A stretch of DNA of 53,689 bases. Origin: a virus (taxonomy: Duplodnaviria; Caudoviricetes). Numbering within the stretch: position 1 is the first letter of the stretch; each line of letters begins with the position of its first letter. Made by a program: the position numbers and the translations under genes. Positions 3,532-47,351 of this stretch are shown piece by piece. The notes beneath the pieces were generated by a model. It saw only the letters and a list, made by a program, of their open reading frames with translations. It did no database searches and had not been told where the DNA came from. The stretch lies in the IMG/VR virus record IMGVR_UViG_3300029309_000059, positions 1-53,689 of that record; one strand, 5' to 3'.

Positions 3532-4000
3532 CTCTACTACTGGTAGAGTTGCTGAGGTAAGATTCCTGAGGGCTGCAAGAAACAGAGGTTTACTTGTAAA
3601 GAAATCAAGCCATACAGAAGATATACATTCTCACGTTGATTACTGGCTTGCTCTAAAAGATGGTGGAAGATGGGGCGTTGATGTAAAGGGTAATAATCTA
3701 CCAGATGAGATATGGGTAGAATTTAAAAATGTATCAGGAGACAAAGGATGGCTGTACGGGGGTGCTTTTTTGATCGCATTTGATATGCCTGAGGAGGGAG
3801 GCTTTGCTATAGTTGACAGAGATGAACTAGCATCTTTTTGCGAAAAACATGTGAAGAGTGAAATCGTTACTAATAAAAACGATGCATACCTGAAAAGGTA
3901 TACCAGGAGAAACAGGGGCGATTCAATAACCATGCTTAAGCTGCATGATCTTAAAAGCTTGCTATCTTATAGAATTTGGGAATACGATAAAAAGTATTAA
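3503..4000 (+). CDS. PD-(D/E)xK-family nuclease-like protein
   Basis: G..AE...HVDYW...VDVKG...WVEFKNV.G..GWLYG motif set. Confidence 0.65.
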   Translation: MNAKERTRYSSTTGRVAEVRFLRAARNRGLLVKKSSHTEDIHSHVDYWLALKDGGRWGVDVKGNNLPDEIWVEFKNVSGDKGWLYGGAFLIAFDMPEEGGFAIVDRDELASFCEKHVKSEIVTNKNDAYLKRYTRRNRGDSITMLKLHDLKSLLSYRIWEYDKKY

Positions 4001-4077
4001 TCATATGCAGGCGTGACATAAATATCATTATATGGTATTATATTGGCTACCGTTGCGATTGTATTTAGATTAGTCGC

Positions 4078-4338
4078 ATGAAATCAATAGCATTTTTTTC
4101 TTGTCTTTTATTTGTCTCATGCATGAGAGTACCACAAAAGCTCTATGTTCAGCCAGAAGATTACAATTGTGACTTGATAATCTCTACATCATGGGACGGA
4201 TGTCACCCAGTTCAGCACTTTGAAAAAGAATTGTTAGTAAATCATACGCATACGGACTATATGGGGATGAATTATAAATTGATATCAACTGAAGATCCTA
4301 AAATATTTATTCTTCAAGTTTCAATACCTTCCCCGTAA
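4078..4338 (+). CDS. putative lipoprotein
   Basis: MKSIAFFSCLLFVSC signal/lipobox; TAGATTAG -7-like element at 4066-4073, 4 nt upstream. Confidence 0.6.
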   Translation: MKSIAFFSCLLFVSCMRVPQKLYVQPEDYNCDLIISTSWDGCHPVQHFEKELLVNHTHTDYMGMNYKLISTEDPKIFILQVSIPSP

Positions 4339-4368
4339 CTTTATTGAGTTGGATGGCGTAGTGTAAGT

Positions 4369-4539
4369 ATGATGTGGTCAACTTACATAATGGATTTTTT
4401 GCTTCTCTTAGCAAACTATGGCCAAGCAGTTAGTCCTGACTCTCATGCCGCATGCATGGACTTCAATGGTGACGGATTTATTACCATGTATGACTTTCTT
4501 GAAATGCTGTCTATGCAGCCTAAGCCAGAGAAGTCATGA
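4369..4539 (+). CDS. 56-aa dockerin/EF-hand-like Ca-binding miniprotein (not in ORF track)
   Basis: Manual translation MMWSTYIMDFLLLLANYGQAVSPDSHAACMDFNGDGFITMYDFLEMLSMQPKPEKS; its TGA overlaps the next ATG (ATGA). Confidence 0.65.
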   Translation: MMWSTYIMDFLLLLANYGQAVSPDSHAACMDFNGDGFITMYDFLEMLSMQPKPEKS

Positions 4540-4769
4540 TGAAGAATACGAAACATCATCAGATAGTCAAGGCTGTTGTTTCCAGGGATTTTAAGTTCAT
4601 CCACATTGACGCTGGCATGGGTGACAACGGTTTGCAGCGAATAGTAACTGAAACTAGCGAGGAAGAAGTGATTCACTGTTATCTATACCCTATCATAGAT
4701 AAGATATGTAGAGAGGAGTTTAGAGATCTAGAAGATATCGCCCTTACAATAAAGGTTACTTGGGTCTAG
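4536..4769 (+). CDS. hypothetical protein
   Basis: Last + strand gene; its stop overlaps that of the convergent - strand gene. Confidence 0.55.
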   Translation: MMKNTKHHQIVKAVVSRDFKFIHIDAGMGDNGLQRIVTETSEEEVIHCYLYPIIDKICREEFRDLEDIALTIKVTWV

Positions 4770-5131
4770 AAGTCGTTAAGCATGATGTCGTCAACGGCCT
4801 CTTGAACTTCTTTAAGAGTGGCTTCCATAGTCATCATGATGTTTGCCTGGAATCTTTCTGCTTCTTCCCCTTCATTGAAAACAACAATGGTGGGTACCAC
4901 GACAATCTTGTGCTTCTTCTGAAGGTCTGGATTTGAAGCTATATCTATACGAGCTGTCTCACAATCGTCAAGCTTTTCAATCCAAGGCACACTGTTCTGT
5001 GAGTTAAAACTTGCGTTGAACTCAACTACACAGATGCCTGATCCGCATACGTCTTTATCTTCTGCAGGCGTCGCAAAGACTGCCGCCAGTAATAATGCAA
5101 AAGATACACATAGGGTTGATATTAATTTCAT
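4766..5131 (-). CDS. secreted thioredoxin-fold protein lacking CxxC
   Basis: Signal peptide; VVEFNASFNSQN in place of F.A.WCxxC; cis-Pro motif VVPTIVVF...GEE..RF. Confidence 0.75.
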   Translation of the reverse strand: MKLISTLCVSFALLLAAVFATPAEDKDVCGSGICVVEFNASFNSQNSVPWIEKLDDCETARIDIASNPDLQKKHKIVVVPTIVVFNEGEEAERFQANIMMTMEATLKEVQEAVDDIMLNDF

Positions 5132-5134
5132 GTG

Positions 5135-5419
5135 TCATTTTAGTTGATCTATTTTCTCTTCAATGCGCTTAATATCTTGCTTGATTTCAGTGACATCTTC
5201 TTGAGTAGTCATAATTGTTTGACGCACAAGCTGGTCTTTCATATCAAACTCCATGCGCGTGATCTCTGGCTCAGAAGGAAGCGGTAGCTCTTTTGCCTCT
5301 GCTATGTCAGCCTGCAAAGCAAACCACATCCCCACGATTGTTGCTATTCCCGCTGCCACCATACCAAGTGTCTTCAGGTCTAGTGTTACTTTAGTGTCCT
5401 CTCCAATTTGTTTTGCCAT
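5135..5419 (-). CDS. single-TM coiled-coil membrane protein
   Basis: Start MAKQIG overlaps the upstream stop (TGATG); TM segment LGMVAAGIATIVGMWFAL; C-terminal heptads VTEIKQDIKRIEEKID. Confidence 0.7.
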   Translation of the reverse strand: MAKQIGEDTKVTLDLKTLGMVAAGIATIVGMWFALQADIAEAKELPLPSEPEITRMEFDMKDQLVRQTIMTTQEDVTEIKQDIKRIEEKIDQLK

Positions 5420-6465
5420 CACAATAGTATATAATTGAGTCCTACAGAGAAGTCGTGCCACTCTCTGTTCCAGTATCTGTTGTATTTACCTTCGGCAAAT
5501 ACGCCGAGGCTCTTTGTGAGCTTGGTTCCAAAAACAAGCCCAAATCCCAGGTCAACCCATTGACTGCTGTTAACGAAGTTGTGATAGGAATACTCGTCAC
5601 CTGTCTCAAGGTGGTAGGGCATTACGTTGCCCCATGAGTGCAACCAAAAATCTTTTTCGTAGTGATAGAAGTCAAAGCCCAGCACGGCAGAATAAAGCCA
5701 TTGGTTGTCTAGCTGCGCCCTCTTGTCAGAAACATATTCATCAAGCACCTGCGGGATGACCACCTGTTCCCATACCGCTTGATCGTTTGCAATCATGTTG
5801 CCGTCTGGAGAAAAGAACTCACCTGTGTTTACGTCAACGCTATATCCTTGCTGTATAGCTAAGGCGGTGTAGTGTATCTGATTGTTGTCTAGAAGCCATT
5901 GTTGCAGCGGATCGTACCCGTAGGGTTCAGATATTCTTTGCACCACTCCCACATTGAGAGAAAGCTTCTTACCAATCTTCACTCTCGCTCTTTCTGACGC
6001 TTCAAAATATCTGACATCAGCAAAACCATCTTGTAAGTATTCGGCCTTGACTATCCATGTATCTGCCACATATCTAGCAAAGTAGTCTTGATCAAGAAAG
6101 TTCTTCCCTTGTTGTCTTCTCCAGTCAGCTTCGGCCAAGAACTCAAATCCGTCGTATTTTCCTACTGTTGCTGCGTCTCCGTATGTCTTCTCTGTTCCGT
6201 CGTAAAAGATATTAGCTCTGTTCTCGTACCCAAACCTTGCAATCTTTCTCACGCCAAGTGTTAGGGAGTAATCAAAGGGAGTCTCTACAATCTCTGTTGT
6301 AAGCGGTCCTGTAGATACAGAGAATACGTCCTGATCTGACACGGAGTTACCTCCGTTTACGGATGCGTAGAACGTAGCTCTTCTTAACACATTTTTGTAA
6401 AAGTCGCTTTGTCCAAGGGCAAACAAGGGCAAAAGCATAAAGGCTATGGCTACAAGTCTCTTCAT
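5419..6465 (-). CDS. putative outer-membrane beta-barrel protein
   Basis: Signal peptide; many alternating amphipathic strands; C-terminal FSVGLNYILL resembles a beta-signal. Confidence 0.65.
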   Translation of the reverse strand: MKRLVAIAFMLLPLFALGQSDFYKNVLRRATFYASVNGGNSVSDQDVFSVSTGPLTTEIVETPFDYSLTLGVRKIARFGYENRANIFYDGTEKTYGDAATVGKYDGFEFLAEADWRRQQGKNFLDQDYFARYVADTWIVKAEYLQDGFADVRYFEASERARVKIGKKLSLNVGVVQRISEPYGYDPLQQWLLDNNQIHYTALAIQQGYSVDVNTGEFFSPDGNMIANDQAVWEQVVIPQVLDEYVSDKRAQLDNQWLYSAVLGFDFYHYEKDFWLHSWGNVMPYHLETGDEYSYHNFVNSSQWVDLGFGLVFGTKLTKSLGVFAEGKYNRYWNREWHDFSVGLNYILL

Positions 6466-8528
6466 TGTCTTACGATTGTTTCTCTCTTGATTCTACCCTT
6501 ATAATTAGCCATGATTACATACGGCCCTGGTGATGGCAGCTCAACTTTGTTTCCCGTGGTTGTTTCAACAACCGCACCCCTTGCATCAAATAAAGTAATT
6601 ACTGTACCCACAGGAGCTTGTATGTTTACGATTCCAGACGTAGGGTTAGGGAAGAAATGAAGCAATGATCTCACTGCCATATCTACCGCAGTGACTCCGT
6701 CTCCACAGTAGTCGTACATCTCTTCGCATACCGCATCCCAAGCTGTTTCACAGCAGTAAGGGTCAACCTCGATCACCCACGAGTAACAGTAGTCATTCGC
6801 CCAGTACGGTTCTCCTGGGCCAGTGATGCAGCCCGCATCATACAAGCAGGCATCTTCGTTAGGAGTGTTTGCTAACTCATTGTAATTGAATGCGTTAGGG
6901 TCCATGCAGTCAAGTATAACTTCAATGCAATCTCCTGTATCTACGTTTGCTTCTGGATCGTAGTTAAGAGCCTCAGGGGACATGCACCCAAACACAGCAA
7001 GCGTCTCACAGCTGCCATCGTCATAGTCAGCTTCATATCCCTGATTGTAGTACTCTACGTAGCCAGCTTGAGTGCATCCAGCATTGTAGTAGCAGCTACC
7101 ATCCTCTGTATTCGCTTCAGCATCGTAGTTCTGTGCGGTGTCGTCAGTGCATCCATACATAAATGGAATACAACTGGTTCCGCAGTAAGGCATGAAGCTG
7201 TATACATTCCACTCAGGATTCTTAAACGGCTGAAGCGCACCCTGACCGTTGTTAAAGAACGGGTTAAGACCCTCAGCCATGAGCGTATCGCCCAGTTCGT
7301 TTGTAACGAGAATGGAGTTGTGAAGTGTCTGAAACTCAGTCTCTTGAGGTGGTTGCTGCGGCCCTCCAACCTCGAAATAATACACATCTACCTTTTCGTC
7401 TGAATCAAGGACTAGGTCCCATGACTGAGAAAACTCTCCAGGACCCATGGTAAAGATCCATTGCAGCTCCCCCTGCTTTACGCCTATATGCGAGTTCCCC
7501 CATCCATCTCCAGCTGCGTCTCCGATTCTTATGGTTGTGAGGCACGGGCTGTTTAGGTCTGAGATCGTAGCGGTTGAGTCGTAATTAAAAGACTCTGGGT
7601 CCATACACCCCCATGTGTGTAGAGTGAGGCAATCCCCCGCATCTGTAGCCTCTGGGTTGTAGTCAACGTAATCGTCGTCCATGCATCCCACTATCACGCT
7701 ATCGGGAGCGCAGGGTTCCACAAAGACAGCCCCAGAGTAATGCACGTTTCCATCGTTGTCTGAATATGCTAAGTCTTCTAGTTCCCAAACAATCTCCTCG
7801 TCACACGCAGTAATCACAACTCCTCCATCCTGGCCCCCACTTGCAGACCCATTGAGTCCGTCTCCGTAAGTGTCTGTGAGTATCAACTCAAAACCCAGAG
7901 CAACACAAAAATCATAAGTATATGTTGCAAGCTGATCGCCAAAATTGAATCCTCCTGGAAGAACTTGCTCGTAGAACTGACCGACAGCCAAGTCAACAAG
8001 CGTAAACCCAGTTTCATTTGGCCAGTTGTCTAAGGTCAACTCCATCGAGACAAAAGCCTGACCCTCTGGACATTCACTCACATTGCAACTACCGTCATCT
8101 ACAGTCGCCCATGGATTGTAGTTGTTTGATGAATCATCTGTACACCCTGGAATCGGAAGAGCACAAGGCTCGGCAATGAAAGGAACTGTTATTTGTGATG
8201 CATCGAAATCAAATACAGCTACATCAAGTCCACAATCGTTGTTTAGAGCAAACCATCCCTCTCCAAACTGACAGCATATACCGTCTCCAAAAGCATCGTT
8301 AACCACAAGATTGTACTCTCCTGATGGCAGCAGTATCAGCTGTTCCGTATAAGAAGAATCAGGGTATGGTCCTCCAGACGTAAAGGCATTGTCAGAGCCG
8401 ATTGGGTATATCTCCCATGTGCTCTCACCCCCGTAGTTGTCAGTCTGAAACTCAAAATTTACCCAGCTAGGCTGAGACAAACAAACAAATGGAATGCAAA
8501 ATAGTATTGAGAAAAAAGATTTCATCAT
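6462..8528 (-). CDS. Cys/Asp-rich repeat protein with T9SS type A C-terminal sorting domain
   Basis: Signal peptide; three D.(Y/F/A)GDG modules; multiple GC(T/M)D..A.NY...A..DDGSC repeats; C-terminal FFPNPTSGIVNI...LFDARG...GPYVI...TIVRQ. Confidence 0.8.
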   Translation of the reverse strand: MMKSFFSILFCIPFVCLSQPSWVNFEFQTDNYGGESTWEIYPIGSDNAFTSGGPYPDSSYTEQLILLPSGEYNLVVNDAFGDGICCQFGEGWFALNNDCGLDVAVFDFDASQITVPFIAEPCALPIPGCTDDSSNNYNPWATVDDGSCNVSECPEGQAFVSMELTLDNWPNETGFTLVDLAVGQFYEQVLPGGFNFGDQLATYTYDFCVALGFELILTDTYGDGLNGSASGGQDGGVVITACDEEIVWELEDLAYSDNDGNVHYSGAVFVEPCAPDSVIVGCMDDDYVDYNPEATDAGDCLTLHTWGCMDPESFNYDSTATISDLNSPCLTTIRIGDAAGDGWGNSHIGVKQGELQWIFTMGPGEFSQSWDLVLDSDEKVDVYYFEVGGPQQPPQETEFQTLHNSILVTNELGDTLMAEGLNPFFNNGQGALQPFKNPEWNVYSFMPYCGTSCIPFMYGCTDDTAQNYDAEANTEDGSCYYNAGCTQAGYVEYYNQGYEADYDDGSCETLAVFGCMSPEALNYDPEANVDTGDCIEVILDCMDPNAFNYNELANTPNEDACLYDAGCITGPGEPYWANDYCYSWVIEVDPYCCETAWDAVCEEMYDYCGDGVTAVDMAVRSLLHFFPNPTSGIVNIQAPVGTVITLFDARGAVVETTTGNKVELPSPGPYVIMANYKGRIKRETIVRQ

Positions 8529-9265
8529 TTCTTGAGAACCTTGATTTTACCGCCGTATTTATTCAACTTAAAACTAGGTTGAGTTGCTTGCTCCATAAAA
8601 GATTCAACGGGCTCCTGAGTTCTAGGATCGAATGTAGCGTCCTTCAAAGGCGTACTAGAAAGAGAACCACCACGAGCTTCATTAAAAACTTGATCAATAT
8701 CCTTTACTAGTTGTTGATACGATTTATTGTCTAAGTATTCAGTAAATTCTATATCGCGAAGTATATCATCTAATGATGCTTGAAGCTTGTCAAAATCTTG
8801 AATCTCCCCCCGAAGTAAATTTTCCAAATTTATTTGAAGCTCCCCAACAGCCAGACTCTCATCCTTTGCACCTTCTCTTAAAGCTCTATCTGCTATGTTT
8901 TGGAGACGATCATTAAGTTGTTTTTGTTGTAGATTCATAAGAGCTCTTTTGTCTGCTGATCTCTCAGCAAACCCCTCCAACATCTCTCTTCTCGCCATAT
9001 CAATCGCTGGAGCAACAGAACGAGCCCCTCTGCCAGCCAGAGCCCTAACCCCTCTAGCTGCCAGTGAAGCCAACTCCCCTGCCCCCATAAAATCAAAGAT
9101 GTACGGGCGATCTACACTGATAGCCCCAGTAACCCTTGGATCAGGTATGATATTCTGACGCATAGCCTCATCCATCATGACAGCCCTGTCAGCAGCTAAT
9201 TGTTCTCTAGCCATTTTCTCCAAAACAGGGTCTTTACCTCCATTCTGATATTTCTTAATCTTCAC
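8525..9265 (-). CDS. hypothetical protein with basic KKYQNGG / KYGGKIKV termini
   Basis: 246-aa ORF with GTG start overlapping the holin stop. Confidence 0.7.
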   Translation of the reverse strand: MKIKKYQNGGKDPVLEKMAREQLAADRAVMMDEAMRQNIIPDPRVTGAISVDRPYIFDFMGAGELASLAARGVRALAGRGARSVAPAIDMARREMLEGFAERSADKRALMNLQQKQLNDRLQNIADRALREGAKDESLAVGELQINLENLLRGEIQDFDKLQASLDDILRDIEFTEYLDNKSYQQLVKDIDQVFNEARGGSLSSTPLKDATFDPRTQEPVESFMEQATQPSFKLNKYGGKIKVLKK

Positions 9266-9699
9266 TTTTTTGATTTTTCTATCGTTCTACCTGCGAAGTA
9301 TGCACCAAATGCAGTTAGCATAAGGATCTGTAACAAATCTACGTAAGAATCTTTGACGTTAAATGGCCAGTTGTCCATGCTATCCGCAAGCATCGTGAGC
9401 ATAAACATGCTCATAAGAGCAATCAATGTAACAGGTCTGATAAGCTTGGCTAACTTTACATCGCTACCCATATCTGCCTGCCATCTAGAAGTAACGTTGT
9501 TTTGAAACTGAATCTCAGCATCCACAGCAGCGTTACCCTCATCAGTATCTACGTCAGGGTCTTTTTCAATAAGATTTTTTACAATACCTAGCCCTCCGCT
9601 GTCAGGCAATAGATCCCCTACTACATTAAGTACGTTAGGTGCTTTTGACTTCAACCATTTACCAAGACCTGTGTCTTTAATCTTTTTCTTGTCTGCCAT
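9262..9699 (-). CDS. holin (GTA 3TM-holin-like)
   Basis: VTSRWQADMGSD..LAKLIRP motif, C-terminal TM segments, YFAGRTIEK end. Confidence 0.7.
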   Translation of the reverse strand: MADKKKIKDTGLGKWLKSKAPNVLNVVGDLLPDSGGLGIVKNLIEKDPDVDTDEGNAAVDAEIQFQNNVTSRWQADMGSDVKLAKLIRPVTLIALMSMFMLTMLADSMDNWPFNVKDSYVDLLQILMLTAFGAYFAGRTIEKSKK

Positions 9700-12600
9700 T
9701 ATCTTATGAATTGCTTTTTACCAATATAGATATTTCTAGTGTTTTCAACGCCAAGACCAGCCTCTTTAGATATACTGAATATCTTCTTTTTGTGAACGCC
9801 CAGTCTTTCCGCTGCATGCATAAGCTCTCTTATCTCAGCATCAACTTCTGCTAACTTTTCTGTTGCCTTTTCAGAATCGTCATATCTGAGCCTTGTAGCA
9901 TCTCTCCTTCTCTCCCTAAAGTCCCTGAGCTTGTATCCAAGCTGTTCTTCTATATCAATCCTGTAGGGCTTTAGTCCCGTGAGTTGACCAATAAGCTCTC
10001 CCCCTACGTTATCTGCCTGGACTACCTTTCTTATAGACTTTATCGTTCCTGGCTCTATAGTGCCTTGGTACATATAGTTTAAGACATCAAAAGCCTGCTG
10101 AGCAGCATCGTCTTCTGGGTTCCATATTGGGGCTCCACTTCTTTTTTTGTTGGCAGTCATGTCCAAGATTGCCGCAGTTGCTATATCCACCCCAATGAAA
10201 GGTTCTATAACCTGATAGGCACCCTTTGCCACTGCTTGACCAGCTGATTCACCTTCAGCTACAGAATTGATTATTCTATCAAAATTACCGAATGGGTCTG
10301 AGGCTGATAAGTCAACAAAAGTGATCTTCCCTTGACCAGCATCAAGAACGCATATGGCTGATTTTTTTGTCCATGGAGGGCTGAAAAGCCTTATGTCATC
10401 AAGCCTTTGTGATTCATCCTCGTCGTCGAACATCAAGCCATACAACCCCTGAAGACCCACTCCAATACCTTTTGCAAAATGGTACATTATTGCTTTCTTG
10501 ACTGCTTGATACGACAGCACCCCAATAAGTCTTTTTGCGCCAATCTTTCTTTGTTCAGGGTTTTCTGACACAACTTCTCTAACGGCGTACTCAAATGTAT
10601 TGTAGGCCACCCTGTAAGACTCGGCTTGAAACGCTACAAAGTTTCCAACCGCAGGAACCCTTCGGATAAATTTAATCGCATCAGGAACTCGGCTATATGT
10701 AGGAAAAGTATTCTTTACTATCTCAGCAACCGTGGATTCTACCTGAGACATCTCCTGTTCGTTTAACGATTCCGCAGATTTGTTAAACAAAATTTTGGCT
10801 TGTCTCTTTAGCTCCATCTCGTAGGCTACGATCTTAAAAAAGTCATCCTCGGCCTGATAAAGGTTTTCCGCACCCCTTCCAACAGCTCGTGCAGCTCTTA
10901 ATGTAAAATTCTTGATGCCCGTGGCCTCGTTATTGAGTCTGCTCTCTATAGCTTTGGACCAGTTGGCATCCTTGAACATATCCCTAATCTCACCTATTGA
11001 TGCACTTTGCTTTACAATACCCAACTCAATGTATTTATTGAGCTTGTTGTTTAATTCCTCGTTACCACTTTTTCTCAAATCGTTGTAGACAACTTGAAGA
11101 GATTTGTACATCTCAGAACCAGTTTCAAAAGGACTAAACACAAACCCATTGACATACATGAATCCCATGTTACCCAAAAGGTTTTTAGCGTGAGTACCAA
11201 GGGACAAGATGGTCTTAGAGTATTTTGTCGCACCTATAAGCCTGAAGTACGCCTGCAGGAAAGTGTTGTTTGTTTCCTTTTCAACTGCTGCTAGTTCTGC
11301 TGCAAGCTCTTTCGTGGTGTACAACCCATCAAGATCACTGTTGGTGCCTTGTATTTGAGTATCGAAGACTCCACTCCTTCCGTCAAAGAAGAACTTACCC
11401 TTACCAATCTCTATTATTTTATTTAGATACTTTTGAGCTTCTAGCGCAGCAGTCATTCTCATGACAGATTTAGCATAATTTTGCACGGGGTTGCTGTACT
11501 CACCCATGAGTGCTCTAATCTCTTTGGGGATATCCTGTCTTTGCTTAAGTATTCTAGTGTCTACCTTCTTTGTTGCCACTGATTTCGTAGTCTCTTCTGC
11601 AAAAGCTTTGGCTTGTTCTGGATCAATGTACTTGTTTACCTCAGCGTCAATCAAGGACTCATAATATTCGTCACGAGAAAGATTGTTGGGGTTTTGATTT
11701 GTTTGCCACTCTGCGTCAGCCCTATCATTAAGCGATTTACCATCGGTATCTCTATCTCTATTCCTTATAAGTCTTTTTGCGTCCTCTATGATCTTCGCGT
11801 TTTCGTCACGCGCAAGTGATTTTCTCCAAGCCTTTGGGTTGTCAAAAACTTTGTACGATCTGGTCAGGTAAGTACCGAGATTGCCCAAAAGCTTATCAGC
11901 TTCAGAAGACTTGTTAAGAATATCAGACCTCTCTTGCTTTTTGCTCTCCAGCTCTTTTTCAAGTCTTTCCCTTACTGATGGTGTATCCTTGATTCTGCGC
12001 TTGCCAAGAGCAGTTTCAAGCTCCTGTATTTCATCTGACAAGGTTTTCAGTCTAGCTCTATTTGTCTCTGCAGAATCTATATCTACAACGCCAGCGTCAA
12101 TCAACTGCACGGTGAGGGCATCAACTTGATTTCTCATTGATGTAACTATCTCTTGCATCTCTGGAGAAAGGTTGTTGATCCCTTCTCCCCCTCTCATCGC
12201 GCTGTCTAGGTTCTGATAAAAAGCATCATTGTCAAAATCAGCACTTTTGTTTTCTTGTTTTAGCTGCTGATTGAACTTGGCAATTGTTTGCTCAATGACA
12301 CTAGAGCCCTTAGCCACATTTGCTTGGCTCTGTTCTTTCTCTGCAAAAAGAGACTTTGGGAGAAACCTCCTAGCCAAAAGAACAGACCTTCTAATTCTTT
12401 CTGCCGCATTTGCTAGACCTTTACCTCTAACAAAAAGATCTTGATCCTCAAGGGACTCTTCAGTCACTGGTGTGGGGGCGGGGGCCTCTGCTTCAGTTTC
12501 TTCCTGAGTTTGTGCTTCAACATCAGAAGCGTTGGGATCGTCTTGCTCTTCAGGGTCAACTGCGACGTCAGGAACCATATCCGTCAGTCGATCTGTCTCC

Positions 12601-14774
12601 TCCTGCAATGCTGCCTCTGCTCTATCAGCATCTTCTTGAGCTCTCTGCTCAGCAGAGACAGGTTGATAATTATCTATTATATCTTCAATACGAAGCTGAA
12701 GCTCGCTTAACTGGTTAGCTTCTTTTTTGACAAGCCTAGAATCTATTGCGTTAGCTATTTTTCTTTTTAGGTCTGCTTCTTGACTTAACAGAGCATACAA
12801 CTGCTTTTGAGTTGACAAATCGGCATCCTCAGGCACACTGTTTATGATATCCGCAGTTTTATTTATGTCCTCAACTTTAGCGTCATACTGTTCCTTTGTT
12901 ATTTTACCCTCAGCCAAATCTACCTGAGCCTTTGCAATAGCCAAATCTCTGACCATAGGGGGTCTGAAAGAATTAAGACCCTGCATAAGCTCATCAGAGA
13001 ACGTAGACCTAGGATCCATTGCTCGAACAGCAGTAGGTGCGCCAATGAAAAATCCGCCAATAGCTTCGGCTGCAGATGATTTAGCAATTAACTTATAATA
13101 TTCTTTTGAAAAAAATTCAGGAGTTTTAAACTCTCCTGAGTTCTTAGAGGCGTTCCAAAGTCTTTTTGCATTGACTTCAGCAACAGCCTGAAGAGCACCT
13201 GTTTCTGCCTCGGCGAGAGAGCCAGAAGCAAGAACCAAAGTGCCTCTTGCTAGAGCAGACTGTACATCTTGTTGTACAAACTCAGTAAAGCTTTTGTTTA
13301 CAGCCCTTCTGTTCAATGCCCTGAAAGCAAGCTTTGATAATAAGCCGTCTCTGTTGATAACATTTCTAAAACCCAAATCCTCTAAAACGGCAATCACCAA
13401 GGCCAAAGGTGCTTTGTATAAATACTTCTCCTCTTCAGGTACATCCTGCCACTCTTCCCCCTGCATCTCTCTATCTGCAGCCTCCATCGCCTGGATCATT
13501 AACGCCCCTCGTGTAACAAACTTTCCACCTGGCAAGGCAAACGCTGGAATAGATCTGGCGGCACCAAACACCCCTGTTGCCACAATACTCTCTTCTTGCA
13601 ATCTCTGAATGTACTGTTCAGTCACATTTGGCGTTTGAAAAACAGAAGATACTCTTTTGCCCATTTCGGTAATATCAGCCTTTATATCTCTCTGTTGCTC
13701 AGTTAGCCTGGCTGTGGCATCTTCGTCTTCACCAATTTTGGCGATACCAAAGCCTATATCTGTTAGGATTTTAAGGCCACCACCAATAAGATCTTCATTT
13801 ATTCCGCTAATAAACGAGTTGTAAGCCCCCCCAAGAAAGTTTCCCTCATCGGCCTTTTGCTCTGCATACCTTTTAGCTTTCTTCTGTAATGAAGCACCTT
13901 CTAATGAAAGCTGACTAGCTCGTTTATTAAATGCAATAACATCGTTGTTATAGTCCTCCTGTAAGGCTTGAAACTTTATGCTTTCCTCTTCATTCATCTC
14001 AATAAGAGATGCCATCATATCTATTTCTTCTTTTTTAGATATCAAAGAGTCTTTCTGAACATTAAATTGATTTAATGATTCAATAAACTCATCATTTTCT
14101 TGTCTTAGAGCTTCGTCGTTCCTGTATACAGGGGTCGATGTTTCAAGAGTTTTTGCGATGTTGCTGATTAGTTCCTTGTCTTGAACCATGTTCTCAGACA
14201 TCCAAGCACGAATCTCTGATGCTGTTTGAATCTTTTGTTCTTCAGACTGCATACCCCTTGTGGGTCTAGCCTCTCTTGACCGAACACTTCCAGGAGCTCC
14301 GATCTCAGAAAACTGAGCCATAGAAACAGGTCTAGGGTCAAATGAGAATCGAGCTCGCTTCCCATTTGGCGCCTTTACAGACACCACGTCCTGCCCAGGC
14401 AAAGCCAACGTAGCCTCGCTGAACTCAAATCCAAAGTCATTGAAATCAGCGTTTAGCTGTTGCACAGCAGGCTCTTCTGTCAGGCCAACTGTCTGAGCGT
14501 CAACCCTTTTGAGTCTTTCTCGAAACGGCTTGTCCAACGAAAACAGCTCCGAAGAACCATCTTCCAATACGGAATCCGTATCTTTTTTTTTTACCCCCAT
14601 CAACACGCTGAAATCATCAGCACTTTTCTGATATCCAGCGTTAGAAAACATAGTATAGGCGTCACCGAGAGCCTGCTCATCTGTATTTATCAATTCGACA
14701 AACTCCTCAAATGATTTCGTATACCCCCCTTGCTGAAACAGCTTGTAAGCGTCTTGCTGTGCCTGTTCGTTCAT
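9699..14774 (-). CDS. large internal virion / DNA ejection protein
   Basis: 1691 aa, helical and Ala-rich; last of three genes after the tail nozzle, matching podovirus synteny. Confidence 0.65.
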   Translation of the reverse strand: MNEQAQQDAYKLFQQGGYTKSFEEFVELINTDEQALGDAYTMFSNAGYQKSADDFSVLMGVKKKDTDSVLEDGSSELFSLDKPFRERLKRVDAQTVGLTEEPAVQQLNADFNDFGFEFSEATLALPGQDVVSVKAPNGKRARFSFDPRPVSMAQFSEIGAPGSVRSREARPTRGMQSEEQKIQTASEIRAWMSENMVQDKELISNIAKTLETSTPVYRNDEALRQENDEFIESLNQFNVQKDSLISKKEEIDMMASLIEMNEEESIKFQALQEDYNNDVIAFNKRASQLSLEGASLQKKAKRYAEQKADEGNFLGGAYNSFISGINEDLIGGGLKILTDIGFGIAKIGEDEDATARLTEQQRDIKADITEMGKRVSSVFQTPNVTEQYIQRLQEESIVATGVFGAARSIPAFALPGGKFVTRGALMIQAMEAADREMQGEEWQDVPEEEKYLYKAPLALVIAVLEDLGFRNVINRDGLLSKLAFRALNRRAVNKSFTEFVQQDVQSALARGTLVLASGSLAEAETGALQAVAEVNAKRLWNASKNSGEFKTPEFFSKEYYKLIAKSSAAEAIGGFFIGAPTAVRAMDPRSTFSDELMQGLNSFRPPMVRDLAIAKAQVDLAEGKITKEQYDAKVEDINKTADIINSVPEDADLSTQKQLYALLSQEADLKRKIANAIDSRLVKKEANQLSELQLRIEDIIDNYQPVSAEQRAQEDADRAEAALQEETDRLTDMVPDVAVDPEEQDDPNASDVEAQTQEETEAEAPAPTPVTEESLEDQDLFVRGKGLANAAERIRRSVLLARRFLPKSLFAEKEQSQANVAKGSSVIEQTIAKFNQQLKQENKSADFDNDAFYQNLDSAMRGGEGINNLSPEMQEIVTSMRNQVDALTVQLIDAGVVDIDSAETNRARLKTLSDEIQELETALGKRRIKDTPSVRERLEKELESKKQERSDILNKSSEADKLLGNLGTYLTRSYKVFDNPKAWRKSLARDENAKIIEDAKRLIRNRDRDTDGKSLNDRADAEWQTNQNPNNLSRDEYYESLIDAEVNKYIDPEQAKAFAEETTKSVATKKVDTRILKQRQDIPKEIRALMGEYSNPVQNYAKSVMRMTAALEAQKYLNKIIEIGKGKFFFDGRSGVFDTQIQGTNSDLDGLYTTKELAAELAAVEKETNNTFLQAYFRLIGATKYSKTILSLGTHAKNLLGNMGFMYVNGFVFSPFETGSEMYKSLQVVYNDLRKSGNEELNNKLNKYIELGIVKQSASIGEIRDMFKDANWSKAIESRLNNEATGIKNFTLRAARAVGRGAENLYQAEDDFFKIVAYEMELKRQAKILFNKSAESLNEQEMSQVESTVAEIVKNTFPTYSRVPDAIKFIRRVPAVGNFVAFQAESYRVAYNTFEYAVREVVSENPEQRKIGAKRLIGVLSYQAVKKAIMYHFAKGIGVGLQGLYGLMFDDEDESQRLDDIRLFSPPWTKKSAICVLDAGQGKITFVDLSASDPFGNFDRIINSVAEGESAGQAVAKGAYQVIEPFIGVDIATAAILDMTANKKRSGAPIWNPEDDAAQQAFDVLNYMYQGTIEPGTIKSIRKVVQADNVGGELIGQLTGLKPYRIDIEEQLGYKLRDFRERRRDATRLRYDDSEKATEKLAEVDAEIRELMHAAERLGVHKKKIFSISKEAGLGVENTRNIYIGKKQFIR

Positions 14775-43081: not shown

Positions 43082-43322
43082 AACTCATAAAAATAGGTGT
43101 TTTCTCTCCAACATAAGATCCAACAATATTAAAATCTGCATGCTCTACAGCATCTTCGTAGTCCATACCCTCCTCTACAAGTATCTCTATTATTCTATCT
43201 ATATCGTACACAGCAACTACGTTCGCACCGTATGTGCACCCAACAAGTGCGTCATCAAATCCATCAGCAGTAAGGCATTCTTCTTCTGCGAGCACCTCCA
43301 TCAAGTCTTCTTTGTCAATCAT
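43071..43322 (-). CDS. acidic hypothetical protein
   Basis: ADGFDDALVG...AVYD...EDAVEH..FNIVGSYVGEKTPIF pattern seen in small phage proteins. Confidence 0.7.
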   Translation of the reverse strand: MIDKEDLMEVLAEEECLTADGFDDALVGCTYGANVVAVYDIDRIIEILVEEGMDYEDAVEHADFNIVGSYVGEKTPIFMSFVG

Positions 43323-43906
43323 TTTTCTACGTATAAAAGATCTTCGGTTCTAGTTCTATAATATTCCTTGCCATCTATCTTAATACGATAGTCTCGATTT
43401 TGCTTGAAACCAACAACATCCCCAGCTTTCAATCCAAGATCTTCAACCCAAGGAGCCGTAAAAGCGATACGACCCTTTGTTGGTAAGCTCTTTTTAAGTT
43501 CGATAACTTCGATAACATCAGATTTTGTTTTTAATTCATCTTGAACTACAGGCTCAAGAAGAGCCCAACCAGCAAGAGGATGTATGTGTCCACTTTTTGA
43601 ACTCTTATATCCAATGGCTTGATTGTTTATAGTGTGGTTAGGATCGTATCTAACCAGATAATGGTTTTCATGTCCAGTTAATGCTTGGCCCTCATTAAGC
43701 ACAACGAGATGATGAAAATATAAGGTGTCTCCAGACTCTACTCCTGTGTTGTGTTTAAGAGGTGCAGATACTACTGGCCCCTCAGTTACTCTATGTTCAA
43801 ACTCATTAAAGCTAGTATTTACATAAAGCTCAAGACCACCTTCGGTAGTCATAGTGTCGTTAAGCTGTTTTTCTAGCTCTACAACAAACAGATCAAGTGT
43901 TTTCAT
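43319..43906 (-). CDS. GroES-like co-chaperonin (two tandem GroES-like domains)
   Basis: TEGGLEL...GPVVSAP..GVESGDTLYFHH, then KGRIAF...GLKAGDVVGF...IDGKEYY. Confidence 0.65.
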   Translation of the reverse strand: MKTLDLFVVELEKQLNDTMTTEGGLELYVNTSFNEFEHRVTEGPVVSAPLKHNTGVESGDTLYFHHLVVLNEGQALTGHENHYLVRYDPNHTINNQAIGYKSSKSGHIHPLAGWALLEPVVQDELKTKSDVIEVIELKKSLPTKGRIAFTAPWVEDLGLKAGDVVGFKQNRDYRIKIDGKEYYRTRTEDLLYVEK

Positions 43907-46432: not shown

Positions 46433-46915
46433 TCAAAGTGATTTACCGAATATTACTTCGTAGTAAGTCTTGCCCTTACTATCTCTGCAAGCTTTGAGAC
46501 ACCTTTTACGATTAACGCCATCGTGAACGTAAGAAACGTGCACCCAATCAGGATTGTCCTCATCACCAAACTCCCAAACCATCTGATCGAACTCAAGATT
46601 CTCGCGAATGTATTGGAATATCTCAGCGTTTGTACAACCTCCGAAAACGTCTGCGTCAAGGTCGAGTGCTCTTCCTTCCATATGCTGACTACGGCGCGAG
46701 CCCCCGATAGCACGGTTGAGCTCAGGTCCACGATAGCCTGACGACACGTATATAGGACACCCGAAATGATCCCTAACAGGTTGAAATACATGTCTTGCAA
46801 TTGCTTTAAGGTTTTCTTCAATCCATTCATCATCAGGTGTATTATCTATACCTAGACGTTTAGCTGTTGTGCTTTTTGTTGCCTCGGCAAGTGATAGATT
46901 TTTTGACAGCTTCAT
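46433..46915 (-). CDS. endolysin, peptidase M15A family
   Basis: SSGYR..LN..IGG...SQH..G.A.D and WVHVS; start at MKLSKN. Confidence 0.85.
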   Translation of the reverse strand: MKLSKNLSLAEATKSTTAKRLGIDNTPDDEWIEENLKAIARHVFQPVRDHFGCPIYVSSGYRGPELNRAIGGSRRSQHMEGRALDLDADVFGGCTNAEIFQYIRENLEFDQMVWEFGDEDNPDWVHVSYVHDGVNRKRCLKACRDSKGKTYYEVIFGKSL

Positions 46916-46925
46916 ATGATATATA

Positions 46926-47351
46926 TTAAGCAGCTGCAAATACTTCTACATCACATGTTGCTGTATCAGCCTGCACTGCTATAGAATCTATGTTTGCCAA
47001 ACTAACAGACGCCCCGCCTGCTGCATTTGCATCCATAGATTGATTATTTAAGATAAAGCTGTCACCAGCTTCAAGCTTTACGAAATACTCTTCGTTGTTA
47101 CCTCTAATTCTTAAAGTAACGAAGTTTCCACTGTCAAGGTTAGTCAACCTTAGGTAATTTAAAGTAGCATCTTTTATTGTGCCAGCCGCTACAGCAGAGT
47201 CGAAAAGCAACACGGTCTGTTCTGCAGAGTGAAGGCAGCTCACAATCCTGTGGTCAATCTGAGTTACTGATTCTGTGTGAGTGTTTGTAGATCCACGAGA
47301 AGCACCGTTAAGTGTTACTGCCTCTGTTATAGTTACCGTAAGTGTTGCCAT
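46926..47351 (-). CDS. structural protein, possible distant paralog of the 32990-34641 family
   Basis: MATLTVTITE...YLRLTNLD...KLEAGDSFIL...VEVF; -7 element at 47356-47363, 4 nt upstream. Confidence 0.65.
   Translation of the reverse strand: MATLTVTITEAVTLNGASRGSTNTHTESVTQIDHRIVSCLHSAEQTVLLFDSAVAAGTIKDATLNYLRLTNLDSGNFVTLRIRGNNEEYFVKLEAGDSFILNNQSMDANAAGGASVSLANIDSIAVQADTATCDVEVFAAA

What the first reader, a model, noticed from the sequence alone, without database searches (positions are those of the whole stretch)
4766..8528. Phage-encoded four-gene envelope cassette: T9SS cargo + beta-barrel + membrane coiled-coil + CxxC-less thioredoxin
Seen: four tightly coupled genes (ATGA/TGATG overlaps, 3-nt gap) end the late operon. 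They encode a 688-aa signal-peptide protein with Cys/Asp repeats and a PNP-type C-terminal domain, a 348-aa barrel-like protein, a 94-aa single-TM coiled coil, and a secreted thioredoxin fold with its CxxC replaced by NSQN. Established: type A CTDs route proteins through the Bacteroidota T9SS to the cell surface. Inference: the four together would span inner membrane, periplasm, outer membrane and surface. The phage may remodel the infected cell surface through the host T9SS (superinfection exclusion, receptor masking, adhesion or uptake), with the thioredoxin fold acting as a chaperone for the Cys-rich cargo. None resembles a virion or standard lysis protein.
Basis: partly seen in the sequence, partly recalled or inferred. 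Interest (0 to 1): 0.85.

Follow-up and report, generated by a model that had tools for sequence, protein, structure and literature searches.

The report
Phage lysis-cassette envelope trio plus T9SS cargo
A marine phage of Flavobacteria-like hosts carries, beside its holin, three conserved genes for an outer-membrane barrel, an inner-membrane coiled coil and a redox-dead thioredoxin fold, plus a variable protein tagged for the host's type IX secretion system; the three may be a new way for phages to break the outer membrane.

Summary
Four translationally coupled minus-strand genes (6462-8528, 5419-6465, 5135-5419, 4766-5131) end the late operon of a 53.7-kb IMG/VR phage contig. Its terminase is nearest to Flavobacterium, Cellulophaga and Tenacibaculum phages.

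- g688 has an N-terminal hydrophobic signal, 32 Cys and a C-terminal T9SS type A domain. Its own score is below threshold, but relatives pass.
- g348 folds as a 12-stranded outer-membrane barrel of a phage-only family.
- g94 has one TM segment and a heptad helix.
- g121 is a secreted thioredoxin fold without CxxC.

The interpretation needs revising. Barrel, g94 and g121 form a conserved trio found in three phage clades, with barrel identity down to about 30%. Only the window's clade has the T9SS cargo. A second clade has a different secreted Cys-rich protein, and a third has none. In the other two clades the trio sits directly against an endolysin and the holin, and the endolysin type is swapped between relatives. 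In the window the holin lies two genes upstream.

My best reading (about 0.4) is that the trio performs the outer-membrane step of lysis, like a spanin anchored by a barrel instead of a lipoprotein, and that g688 is a clade-specific surface accessory. Surface remodelling via T9SS remains a live rival. No function was tested.

The parts
9262..9699 (-). Holin-like protein, 145 aa, with two C-terminal hydrophobic segments. Its start overlaps the stop of the 1691-aa virion protein by 1 nt.
   Evidence: phrog_3427 'holin' at E 3.6e-21. tblastn hits lie on genes annotated as holin in Nonlabens and Vibrio phage records. Hydrophobic windows at 83-90. The name rests on annotation, not on an assay.
8525..9265 (-). 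246-aa ORF filling the slot between holin and g688. No family, no signal peptide.
   Evidence: No Pfam, PHROG or NCBIfam hit of note. No homologue in any of the 160 related loci. In the closest relative, L002, the same slot holds a DUF2272 gene (29.4 bits, cut-off 27).
6462..8528 (-). g688 ('C'): secreted, very acidic protein with 32 Cys, three GDG-motif domains, six Cys-bounded repeats and a C-terminal T9SS type A sorting domain.
   Evidence: the architecture is conserved along its whole length in 64 relatives, and 60 of 64 have a hydrophobic N-terminus. ESM Atlas: 25 of 30 nearest clusters carry PF18962 (the five rows shown are 100% viral).
6465..6668 (-). C-terminal sorting domain of g688 (residues about 621-688).
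   Evidence: PF18962 18.3 bits (cut-off 27); TIGR04183 18.3 bits (cut-off 23), matching residues 626-686. Relatives score 30-46 bits. It is the only CTD-like ORF in the window.
5419..6465 (-). g348 ('B'): signal peptide plus a 12-stranded outer-membrane beta-barrel with a 75-residue insert (180-254, helix 229-251). The segment 73-106 is highly conserved but modelled with low confidence.
   Evidence: Tsx Z 13.0, rmsd 3.8, 191 aligned; EstA 12.7; KdgM 12.5; NanC 12.4. No Pfam hit in 30 members. No PDB sequence hit. The C-terminal residue is F, L, Y or I in 172 of 173 full-length members.
5135..5419 (-). g94 ('i'): bitopic protein with a short N-terminal tail, a TM segment at about 17-35, a Pro-rich linker and a conserved periplasmic heptad helix.
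   Evidence: mean column identity 77%; R55-D62 and onward invariant.. No periplasmic Cys in 150 of 150 distinct members.
4766..5131 (-). g121 ('T'): signal peptide plus a thioredoxin fold without CxxC. The cis-Pro loop (VPT) is kept and a Phe sits at or next to the C-terminus.
   Evidence: A lipobox-like motif occurs in only 2 of 163 distinct members.
46433..46939 (-). Probable endolysin of this phage, about 37 kb from the cassette.
   Evidence: Peptidase_M15_3 at 73.4 bits, E 2e-20. 42% identical to the M15_3 gene that sits between T and the holin in clade-2 locus L116.

Best explanation
The last three genes (barrel B, bitopic coiled-coil protein i and redox-dead thioredoxin fold T) form a conserved, phage-only envelope trio that belongs to the lysis cassette. 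The most likely function is the outer-membrane step of lysis.

Proposed mechanism:
1. B is exported by Sec and inserted in the outer membrane by the host BAM machinery.
2. i sits N-in in the inner membrane with its helix in the periplasm.
3. T is a soluble periplasmic adaptor that joins the two, so that B plus T together replace the lipoprotein o-spanin of a classical two-component spanin.
4. Once the holin fires and the endolysin removes the peptidoglycan mesh, the link disrupts the outer membrane.

g688 is a clade-specific addition to this cassette. It is exported by Sec and then by the host's T9SS to the cell surface late in infection, and its role is open (for example masking receptors on debris, or acting on a surface layer).

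Shown here: the gene structure, the folds and families, the co-occurrence, the lysis-cassette synteny and the purifying selection. Inferred: localisation, binding among B, T and i, and any lytic activity.
For: 1. The trio co-occurs in three clades whose barrels share only about 30% identity. It is present in 75 of 80 clade-1 loci, 72 of 80 clade-2 loci and 5 of 7 clade-3 loci, where the other 2 are cut at the contig end. It is also in the one genome hit, L082.
2. i and T are nearly always adjacent or overlapping, in that order; in 4 of 160 loci a 0.6-0.8-kb gap separates them. This is the gene arrangement of i-spanin/o-spanin pairs.
3. Lysis synteny. In 29 of 80 clade-2 loci a Peptidase_M15_3-type gene begins at T's stop, and in 26 of these the holin follows directly. 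All 5 complete clade-3 loci read B-i-T-enzyme slot-holin: the slot is M15_3 in L163 and DUF5675/Tlde1-like in L164, L166 and L168, and was not examined in L165. Non-orthologous replacement in one slot is typical of a lysis cassette.
4. In clade 1 the holin was found beside the module in 33 of 80 loci. L002 reads holin-DUF2272-C-B-i-T. The window reads holin-g246-C-B-i-T.
5. i has i-spanin topology.
6. A crude scan finds no canonical spanin. The window has only one lipobox ORF, on the other strand. Only 3 of 167 loci have a same-strand lipobox ORF near the module.
7. The most invariant part of B (73-106) is modelled with low confidence, which fits a partner-binding segment. This last point is my inference.
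Against: - No binding or lytic activity was tested.
- T is not a lipoprotein (2 of 163 with a lipobox-like motif) and i has no periplasmic Cys (0 of 150). Both are departures from known spanins (Kongari 2018, passages read).
- The trio is far more conserved than spanins usually are (77% mean column identity for i).
- i's periplasmic part is only about 58 residues.
- The model gives no role to C or to S, the 239-aa secreted Cys-rich protein that sits beside the barrel in clade 2, although each is almost always next to B in its own clade.
- In about 20 clade-2 loci 1-7 kb of other genes separate B-S from i-T, so B and i-T may be two sub-modules.
- In the window itself the endolysin lies 37 kb away.
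- Proximity to lysis genes at the end of a compact late operon could be positional only.
- About 15% of phages of Gram-negative hosts lack recognisable spanins (abstract of bioRxiv 10.1101/515445 in the listing), so the absence of a canonical spanin is weak support.
Confidence: 0.4

Rival explanations
1. One reading: the module remodels the infected cell's surface. g688 (and S, the 239-aa secreted Cys-rich protein beside the barrel in clade 2) is the effector. B is its outer-membrane anchor or partner, T is a redox-independent chaperone for the Cys-rich cargo, and i is an inner-membrane helper. The purpose would be superinfection exclusion, masking receptors on debris at lysis, or adhesion.
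For: - The T9SS CTD holds at family level.
- C is always next to the trio: 55 of 55 loci with room downstream.
- B's immediate neighbours are always exported proteins. These are C in clade 1, S in 77 of 80 clade-2 loci, and a small lipoprotein in 7-8 loci.
- Both C and S are Cys-rich and T has a thioredoxin fold.
- C and B-i-T recombine as separate units. Against L002, dS is 1.4 for C and the holin but 0.13-0.36 for B, i and T. This fits an arms-race cargo.
- Phage T9SS cargo that varies between variants has been reported before (Bellas 2020, PMC7468147, passages read).
Against: - Clade 3 has the trio with no secreted partner at all.
- Clade 2 has no CTD ORF in 0 of 80 loci, and its S protein shows no significant CTD likeness (hhalign probability 3.7%).
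- B shows no sequence kinship to PorP/SprF.
- A PorV chain ranks only 26th by fold.
- g688 resembles no other protein of the window, so it is not a copy of the phage's own receptor-binding protein.
- This model does not explain the endolysin/holin adjacency.
Confidence: 0.25
2. The trio regulates lysis rather than executing it. It would be a periplasmic sensor or antiholin-type timing device, in the spirit of T4 RI/holin T (recalled from memory), with B as an outer-membrane input.
For: The synteny with holin and endolysin is the same as for the best explanation. i is a single-TM protein with a periplasmic domain. The strong conservation would suit specific protein-protein contacts.
Against: There is no similarity to any known antiholin. 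An outer-membrane barrel has no precedent in lysis timing. Nothing was tested.
Confidence: 0.1
3. B is a phage-made channel for solute or nucleoside uptake, an auxiliary metabolic gene, and i and T are accessories.
For: The best fold matches are 12-stranded specific channels: Tsx Z 13.0, KdgM 12.5, NanC 12.4. Phage outer-membrane proteins next to transport genes are reported in huge phages (Yuan & Chen 2026 preprint, section 10 read).
Against: A shared barrel fold says nothing about function, and autotransporter and FapF barrels score alike. There are no transport genes nearby. The position is at the end of the late operon beside lysis genes. B has no bacterial homologues (1 locus in 185,579 species genomes), unlike the host-derived outer-membrane proteins of huge phages.
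Confidence: 0.07
4. The four are virion (tail or fibre) proteins.
For: They follow the structural genes. The same Cys-bounded repeat occurs in a 1312-aa fibre-like protein with SprB repeats in clade-2 locus L085.
Against: Three of the four have cleavable-type signal peptides, and one has a TM anchor plus T9SS or barrel features. Export is not compatible with cytoplasmic virion assembly. There are no structural PHROG hits.
Confidence: 0.03

Closest known systems
Two-component spanins (lambda Rz/Rz1 type; Kongari et al. 2018, PMC6139136, passages read)
   Same: They lie in or next to the lysis cassette. They are an adjacent or overlapping gene pair. The first product is a type II inner-membrane protein with a periplasmic coiled coil, and the second is exported.
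   Different: The second product is a 100-residue thioredoxin fold with a type I signal peptide rather than a short lipoprotein (lipobox-like motif in 2 of 163). i has no periplasmic Cys (0 of 150). A third partner, an outer-membrane barrel, is present. Conservation is much higher than usual for spanins.
Phage-encoded T9SS cargo of 'Cryophage' (Bellas et al. 2020, PMC7468147, passages read)
   Same: A phage gene carries a type A sorting domain, presumed to use the host's T9SS, and varies between phage variants.
   Different: The Cryophage cargoes are an endoglucanase, a GH39 and a PA14 protein on a different phage. They have no barrel, thioredoxin or coiled-coil partners and no lysis context. 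That paper calls its case unique, whereas the family here has 2833 proteins at E<=0.001 among the 8000 candidates scored.
Phage-encoded outer-membrane beta-barrels (huge-phage OMPs, Yuan & Chen 2026 preprint, abstract and section 10 read; cyanophage Phage_OMP PF24653, named only)
   Same: They are phage-borne barrel proteins with a signal peptide, presumably inserted in the host outer membrane.
   Different: Those OMPs mostly have host homologues and sit by transport or virion genes. B has no Pfam family and, apart from one MAG contig, no match in 185,579 species genomes. It is on 50-70-kb phages and sits in the lysis cassette.
PorP/SprF-like barrels encoded next to T9SS cargo genes, and the PorV shuttle (roles recalled from memory)
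   Same: An outer-membrane barrel gene lies immediately beside a T9SS cargo gene.
   Different: No PF11751 hit for B or for 30 relatives. The model has 12 strands. The cargo here has a type A rather than type B domain. The barrel persists in clades without any CTD cargo.
12-stranded outer-membrane barrels Tsx, NanC/KdgM, autotransporter beta-domains and FapF
   Same: Fold-level match with Z 9.5-13, rmsd 3.8-5.3 A and 165-198 residues aligned. Foldseek E 4e-6 to 1e-3.
   Different: Sequence identity is 5-18%. B has a 75-residue insert and a long conserved segment that these proteins lack. The fold match implies no shared function.
Thioredoxin (PF00085) and CxxC-less periplasmic thioredoxin folds such as F-plasmid TraF (the latter recalled from memory)
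   Same: The fold and the cis-Pro loop are kept. There are weak hits to TrbC_Ftype (E 0.025 and 0.071).
   Different: There is no active-site Cys pair, so no redox catalysis. The protein is secreted and phage-encoded.

Membership tests
T9SS type A C-terminal sorting domain (PF18962 / TIGR04183) | HMM score at or above the curated cut-off | tested here: not met
   The window's own g688 scores 18.3 bits against cut-offs of 27 and 23. Homologues do pass: 5 of 7 scanned score 30-46 bits and 104 of 120 carry a precomputed PF18962. Membership therefore rests on homology, not on the window's own score.
T9SS type A C-terminal sorting domain (PF18962 / TIGR04183) | Domain at the extreme C-terminus of a protein that also has an N-terminal Sec signal | tested here: met
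   The match covers residues 626-686 of 688. The N-terminus is hydrophobic in the window protein and in 60 of 64 relatives. No dedicated signal-peptide predictor was run.
T9SS type A C-terminal sorting domain (PF18962 / TIGR04183) | Host possesses a T9SS and export depends on it | not testable with these tools
   The host is unknown. Terminase relatives infect Flavobacterium, Cellulophaga, Tenacibaculum, Maribacter and Azobacteroides (88 of 89 records; 1 unassigned).
Thioredoxin fold | Profile similarity to thioredoxins, including the cis-Pro loop | tested here: met
   The A2 profile hits 2vim_A at E 4.3e-7, with 151 chains at E<=1. P80 and T81 are invariant. Pfam PF00085 scores 23.3 bits against a cut-off of 23.5 for the single sequence.
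Thioredoxin (redox-active) | CxxC active site | tested here: not met
   Absent in the window protein and in 161 of 163 distinct relatives.
Outer-membrane beta-barrel protein | Signal peptide, closed antiparallel barrel, hydrophobic or aromatic C-terminal residue | tested here: met
   12 strands at pLDDT 78.7. 30 chains at Z>=8, and all of the top 22 rows are membrane barrels. The C-terminus is F, L, Y or I in 172 of 173 members. I could not inspect the model's coordinates, so barrel closure is inferred from the matches.
PorP/SprF (PF11751) | HMM match | tested here: not met
   No hit at E<=1 for g348 or at E<=0.1 for 30 family members. A fold-level relation was not specifically tested.
PorV / FadL-type T9SS shuttle | Fold closest to PorV | tested here: inconclusive
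   8gl6_F ranks 26th, with E 5.2e-4 and TM 0.29. The 12-stranded barrels rank higher.
Two-component spanin | i-spanin: type II inner-membrane protein with a periplasmic coiled coil | tested here: met
   One hydrophobic segment at about 17-35, three Lys before it, and 9 of 13 heptad a/d positions hydrophobic. Topology is inferred from the sequence only.
Two-component spanin | o-spanin: small outer-membrane lipoprotein with a lipobox, encoded within or next to the i-spanin gene | tested here: not met
   The neighbouring gene encodes T, with a lipobox-like motif in only 2 of 163 members. No embedded or adjacent same-strand lipobox ORF in 164 of 167 loci.
Two-component spanin | Located in the lysis cassette | tested here: met
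   Relatives show T-endolysin-holin contiguity. In the window the holin is two genes upstream but the endolysin is 37 kb away.
Two-component spanin | Needed for outer-membrane disruption; complements a spanin defect | not testable with these tools
   This needs an experiment.

The most novel reading that the evidence does not exclude
B, T and i are a previously unknown class of outer-membrane lysis device. It would be a three-part, envelope-spanning complex whose outer-membrane anchor is a phage-made beta-barrel with a thioredoxin-fold adaptor in place of a lipoprotein. It would be widespread in marine phages of Bacteroidota. In one clade it is coupled to a hypervariable protein that the phage sends to the cell surface through the host's T9SS just before lysis.
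Probability: 0.3. Interest if true: 0.85.

Novelty: new variant of a known kind. Interest (0 to 1): 0.72.

Why it matters
How phages of Bacteroidota breach the outer membrane is poorly known, and canonical spanins are defined by a lipoprotein subunit. This trio is conserved and under strong purifying selection. The barrel family has 3630 proteins at E<=0.001 in one database search and 394 representatives at the 50% identity level. It sits in lysis cassettes and has no Pfam family and no solved relative.

If it does the outer-membrane step, it defines a new lysis protein class and gives annotation for thousands of marine phage genes. Separately, the g688 family shows that phage-encoded T9SS cargo is a large family in marine viromes rather than a single curiosity. 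That makes phage use of the host's T9SS directly testable in Flavobacterium johnsoniae or Cellulophaga.

Tried and rejected
- Complex prediction on B (19-348), i (36-94) and T (23-121) with T as partner gave 'no answer' (score 0.01 against a mark of 0.32; controls not run). This is no evidence either way.
- hhalign of the C-terminus of S (the 239-aa secreted Cys-rich protein beside the barrel in clade 2) against the clade-1 CTD alignment aligned 14 columns with probability 3.7% and E 0.012. My impression that S ends like a CTD is not supported.
- Pfam on 23 S members gave only sub-threshold Ldl_recept_a hits (18 of 23, best E 4e-4) and no CTD.
- PADLOC gave no hit for the four genes.
- PDB sequence searches with the profiles of B and i (best E 0.78) found nothing usable.
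- Cultured phages: no tblastn match for g348 or g688 and no megablast match for 4000-14000. g121 hit only ordinary phage thioredoxins at E>=0.03.
- g688 has no paralogue in the window, so the idea that it copies the phage's own receptor-binding protein was dropped.
- The search for related loci with the divergent barrels P0378, P0304 and P0244 found no viral loci.
- A search for PF11751 in the genome behind L082 and in the 14 control genomes found nothing anywhere, so it could not supply PorP/SprF sequences for a profile comparison.
- The look-up of sequencing runs listed no RNA holder. Expression is therefore untested.
- Read laying: run X5 has no cover over 7005-8339 (the N-terminal half of g688) while the flanks are covered. 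No contig joins across the gap, so I draw nothing from it.
- The first AlphaFold2 model, from the shallower alignment (pLDDT 63.6), was superseded by the second.
- Paper supplements were not consulted. Supplementary tables of Yuan & Chen 2026 and of Kongari 2018 might list related barrels or Bacteroidota phages.
- Literature searches for a barrel- or thioredoxin-based spanin, or for phage T9SS cargo, returned only Bellas 2020 and Yuan & Chen 2026 as relevant. This covers the held library only.

Full report
**What the window is.** The window is a whole IMG/VR virus record of 53,689 bases, estimated 87% complete. PHROG matches give a large terminase (E 1e-207), a portal (E 3e-191), several virion proteins and a primase/helicase. 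By tblastn the terminase is nearest to phages of Bacteroidota. Of 89 records, 68 are Flavobacterium phages, 15 Cellulophaga, 2 Tenacibaculum, 2 Azobacteroides, 1 Maribacter and 1 unassigned, all below 60% identity. No cultured phage matches the region at DNA level.

**The observation.** The four ORFs lie on the minus strand exactly as described, with a 4-nt overlap, a 1-nt overlap and a 3-nt gap. The same coupling runs upstream through a 246-aa ORF, a 145-aa holin-like ORF (phrog_3427, E 3.6e-21) and a 1691-aa virion protein. Downstream the operon meets convergent plus-strand genes.

- g688 has a hydrophobic N-terminus, 32 Cys, six Cys-bounded Asp/Asn-rich repeats and a very acidic composition. 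Its C-terminal domain hits Por_Secre_tail at 18.3 bits, below both curated cut-offs.
- Relatives of g688 pass the threshold. Five of 7 scanned score 30-46 bits. PF18962 is precomputed for 104 of the 120 best homologues. In the ESM Atlas, 25 of 30 nearest clusters carry PF18962, and the five rows shown are 100% viral.
- g121's family profile hits solved thioredoxins at E 4e-7. The cis-Pro loop is invariant, and 161 of 163 distinct members have no CxxC.
- g94 has one TM segment and a heptad-patterned helix.
- dN/dS is 0.01-0.10 for all four genes wherever dS was not saturated.
- Contigs of a run from a different study lie across the g121/g94 and g348/g688 junctions at 99% identity or more. Dozens of independent viral contigs share the arrangement, so a chimeric join is excluded.

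**The barrel.** A first model from a shallow alignment was mediocre (pLDDT 63.6). A whole-library HMMER search found 394 representatives. An alignment including members at 25-40% identity gave a model with pLDDT 78.7, pTM 0.72 and 12 long strands. It also shows a 75-residue insert at 180-254.

- Foldseek ranks NanC/KdgM, FapF, autotransporter and invasin barrels first, at E 4e-6 to 1e-3.
- The Foldseek-independent search gives Tsx Z 13.0 (rmsd 3.8, 191 residues aligned), EstA 12.7, KdgM 12.5 and NanC 12.4.
- There is no Pfam family for any of 30 members and no PDB sequence relative.
- In one genome for each of 185,579 species there is a single locus, on a 120-kb contig of a MAG labelled Rickettsiales. 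That locus also carries i, T and the holin. The family is in effect phage-only.

**Co-occurrence.**
- Searching viral contigs with g348 gave 128 confirmed loci, of which 80 were kept. Of these 80, 75 have B, i and T, and 77 have a CTD-bearing ORF. The usual order is C-B-i-T, and a few loci show permuted but still contiguous orders.
- Starting instead from g688, all 55 loci with a CTD ORF and at least 1.9 kb downstream carry B, i and T.
- A second clade, whose barrel is about 29% identical, gave 96 loci, of which 80 were kept. Of these, 72 have B, i and T, yet none of the 80 has a CTD ORF.
- In that second clade 77 of the 80 loci carry a different secreted protein (S) beside the barrel. S has a signal peptide, ten invariant Cys, an LDL-receptor-A-like motif and a variable acidic repeat region.
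- A third clade, whose barrel is about 31% identical, gave 7 loci. The 5 that are not cut at a contig end have B-i-T and no secreted partner.
- A small Pro-rich lipoprotein sits next to the barrel in 7-8 loci across two clades.
- The conserved unit is therefore the trio, and the T9SS cargo is a clade-specific companion.

**Context of the trio.**
- In 29 of 80 clade-2 loci a gene 39-82% identical to the L116 Peptidase_M15_3 protein starts at T's stop codon. In 26 of these the holin homologue follows directly (Pfam 46.3 bits for the L116 protein).
- In clade 3 the same slot between T and the holin holds Peptidase_M15_3 in L163. In L164, L166 and L168 it holds a DUF5675/Tlde1-like protein instead (L168 by its identical layout).
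- In L002, the window's closest relative, a DUF2272 protein sits between the holin and C.
- In the window that slot holds the orphan 246-aa ORF. The M15_3 homologue (73.4 bits) is at 46433-46939.
- Swapped peptidoglycan enzymes in a fixed slot next to a holin mark a lysis cassette. The trio is part of it in all three clades.

**Mechanism.** i has the topology of an i-spanin, and in all but 4 of 160 loci it lies directly before T, often overlapping it. That is the layout of i-spanin/o-spanin pairs. T, however, is a soluble thioredoxin fold with no lipobox (2 of 163), and i has no periplasmic Cys (0 of 150), so these are not canonical spanins.

A crude scan finds no canonical spanin either. The window has one lipobox ORF, on the opposite strand. 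Only 3 of 167 loci have a same-strand lipobox ORF near the module.

I therefore favour, at about 0.4, a model in which B supplies the outer-membrane anchor, T links it to i, and the complex does the outer-membrane step of lysis once the wall is degraded. The invariant yet poorly modelled stretch 73-106 of B and the invariant R55-D62 stretch of i are candidate contact sites. That is inference.

Points against the model:
- the unusually high conservation of the trio;
- the short periplasmic reach of i;
- the lack of any role for C and S;
- the separability of B-S from i-T in about 20 clade-2 loci.

The complex prediction gave no verdict.

**g688.** All 64 relatives share its architecture along the whole length. 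The best-conserved stretch (541-600) lies just before the sorting domain. Against L002, dS is about 1.4 for C and the holin but 0.13-0.36 for B, i and T. The cargo and the trio are therefore exchanged as separate recombination units. g688 has no paralogue in the window. Its role on the surface is open.

**Comparison with what is known.**
- Phage-encoded T9SS cargo has been reported once in the library I could search. Bellas et al. 2020 describe three variable enzymes or PA14 proteins and call the case a unique occurrence (passages read).
- Phage-encoded outer-membrane barrels are described for huge phages, mostly with host homologues and transport neighbours (Yuan & Chen 2026 preprint, abstract and section 10 read).
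- Spanins are defined by a lipoprotein subunit, and 91 phages in Kongari et al. 2018 had none identifiable (passages read).
- None of my six literature searches returned a barrel- or thioredoxin-containing lysis module.

**Verdict.** The finding is better described as a lysis-cassette envelope trio with a T9SS-routed accessory. It is a new variant of known kinds (lysis cassette, phage outer-membrane protein, phage T9SS cargo), and it could be a new class of lysis protein.

Noticed in passing
window 4078-4338 (+): An 86-aa ORF with a lipoprotein-like signal (hydrophobic run ending in a Cys after F-V-S). It is the only lipobox-type ORF in the window. It is convergent to the cassette, conserved only in the 12 nearest relatives at 42-55% identity, and has no Pfam hit. 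It could be an o-spanin-like or exclusion lipoprotein.
   Followed up: partly
window 8525-9265 (-): The 246-aa ORF between the holin and g688 has no homologue in any of the 160 related loci and no family. Relative L002 has a DUF2272 gene in the same slot. This slot appears to be a hot spot for gene replacement.
   Followed up: partly
L076 465-656, L077 1363-1554, L089 6778-6963, also L098, L099, L104, L105: A small Pro-rich lipoprotein of about 62 aa is encoded immediately beside the barrel gene in two clades. In L076 and L077 the i and T genes were not detected.
   Followed up: partly
L085 801-4739 (+): A 1312-aa fibre-like protein without a signal peptide carries the same Cys-bounded Asp/Asn repeat as g688, plus an SprB repeat (29.5 bits). 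The repeat is therefore shared between exported and probable virion proteins.
   Followed up: no
window 43319-43906 (-): A 195-aa protein matches a phage GroES-like co-chaperonin family (phrog_13932, E 1e-48).
   Followed up: no
L082 (contig of a MAG labelled Rickettsiales, 120 kb) and L078 (viral contig, 119,868 bp): The module and the holin occur on two contigs of about 120 kb, twice the size of the other phages. The MAG label does not fit a T9SS-bearing host, so the contig may be a mis-binned phage.
   Followed up: no
L087 11830-12372 (+): A PAP2-superfamily phosphatase gene (30.4 bits) lies a few genes downstream of T in a clade-2 phage. It is another envelope-directed gene.
   Followed up: no
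window 4369-4539 (+): A 56-aa ORF contains a short Asp/Gly-rich stretch that looks like a calcium-binding loop by eye. It is conserved in the same 12 relatives as the lipoprotein-like ORF.
   Followed up: no
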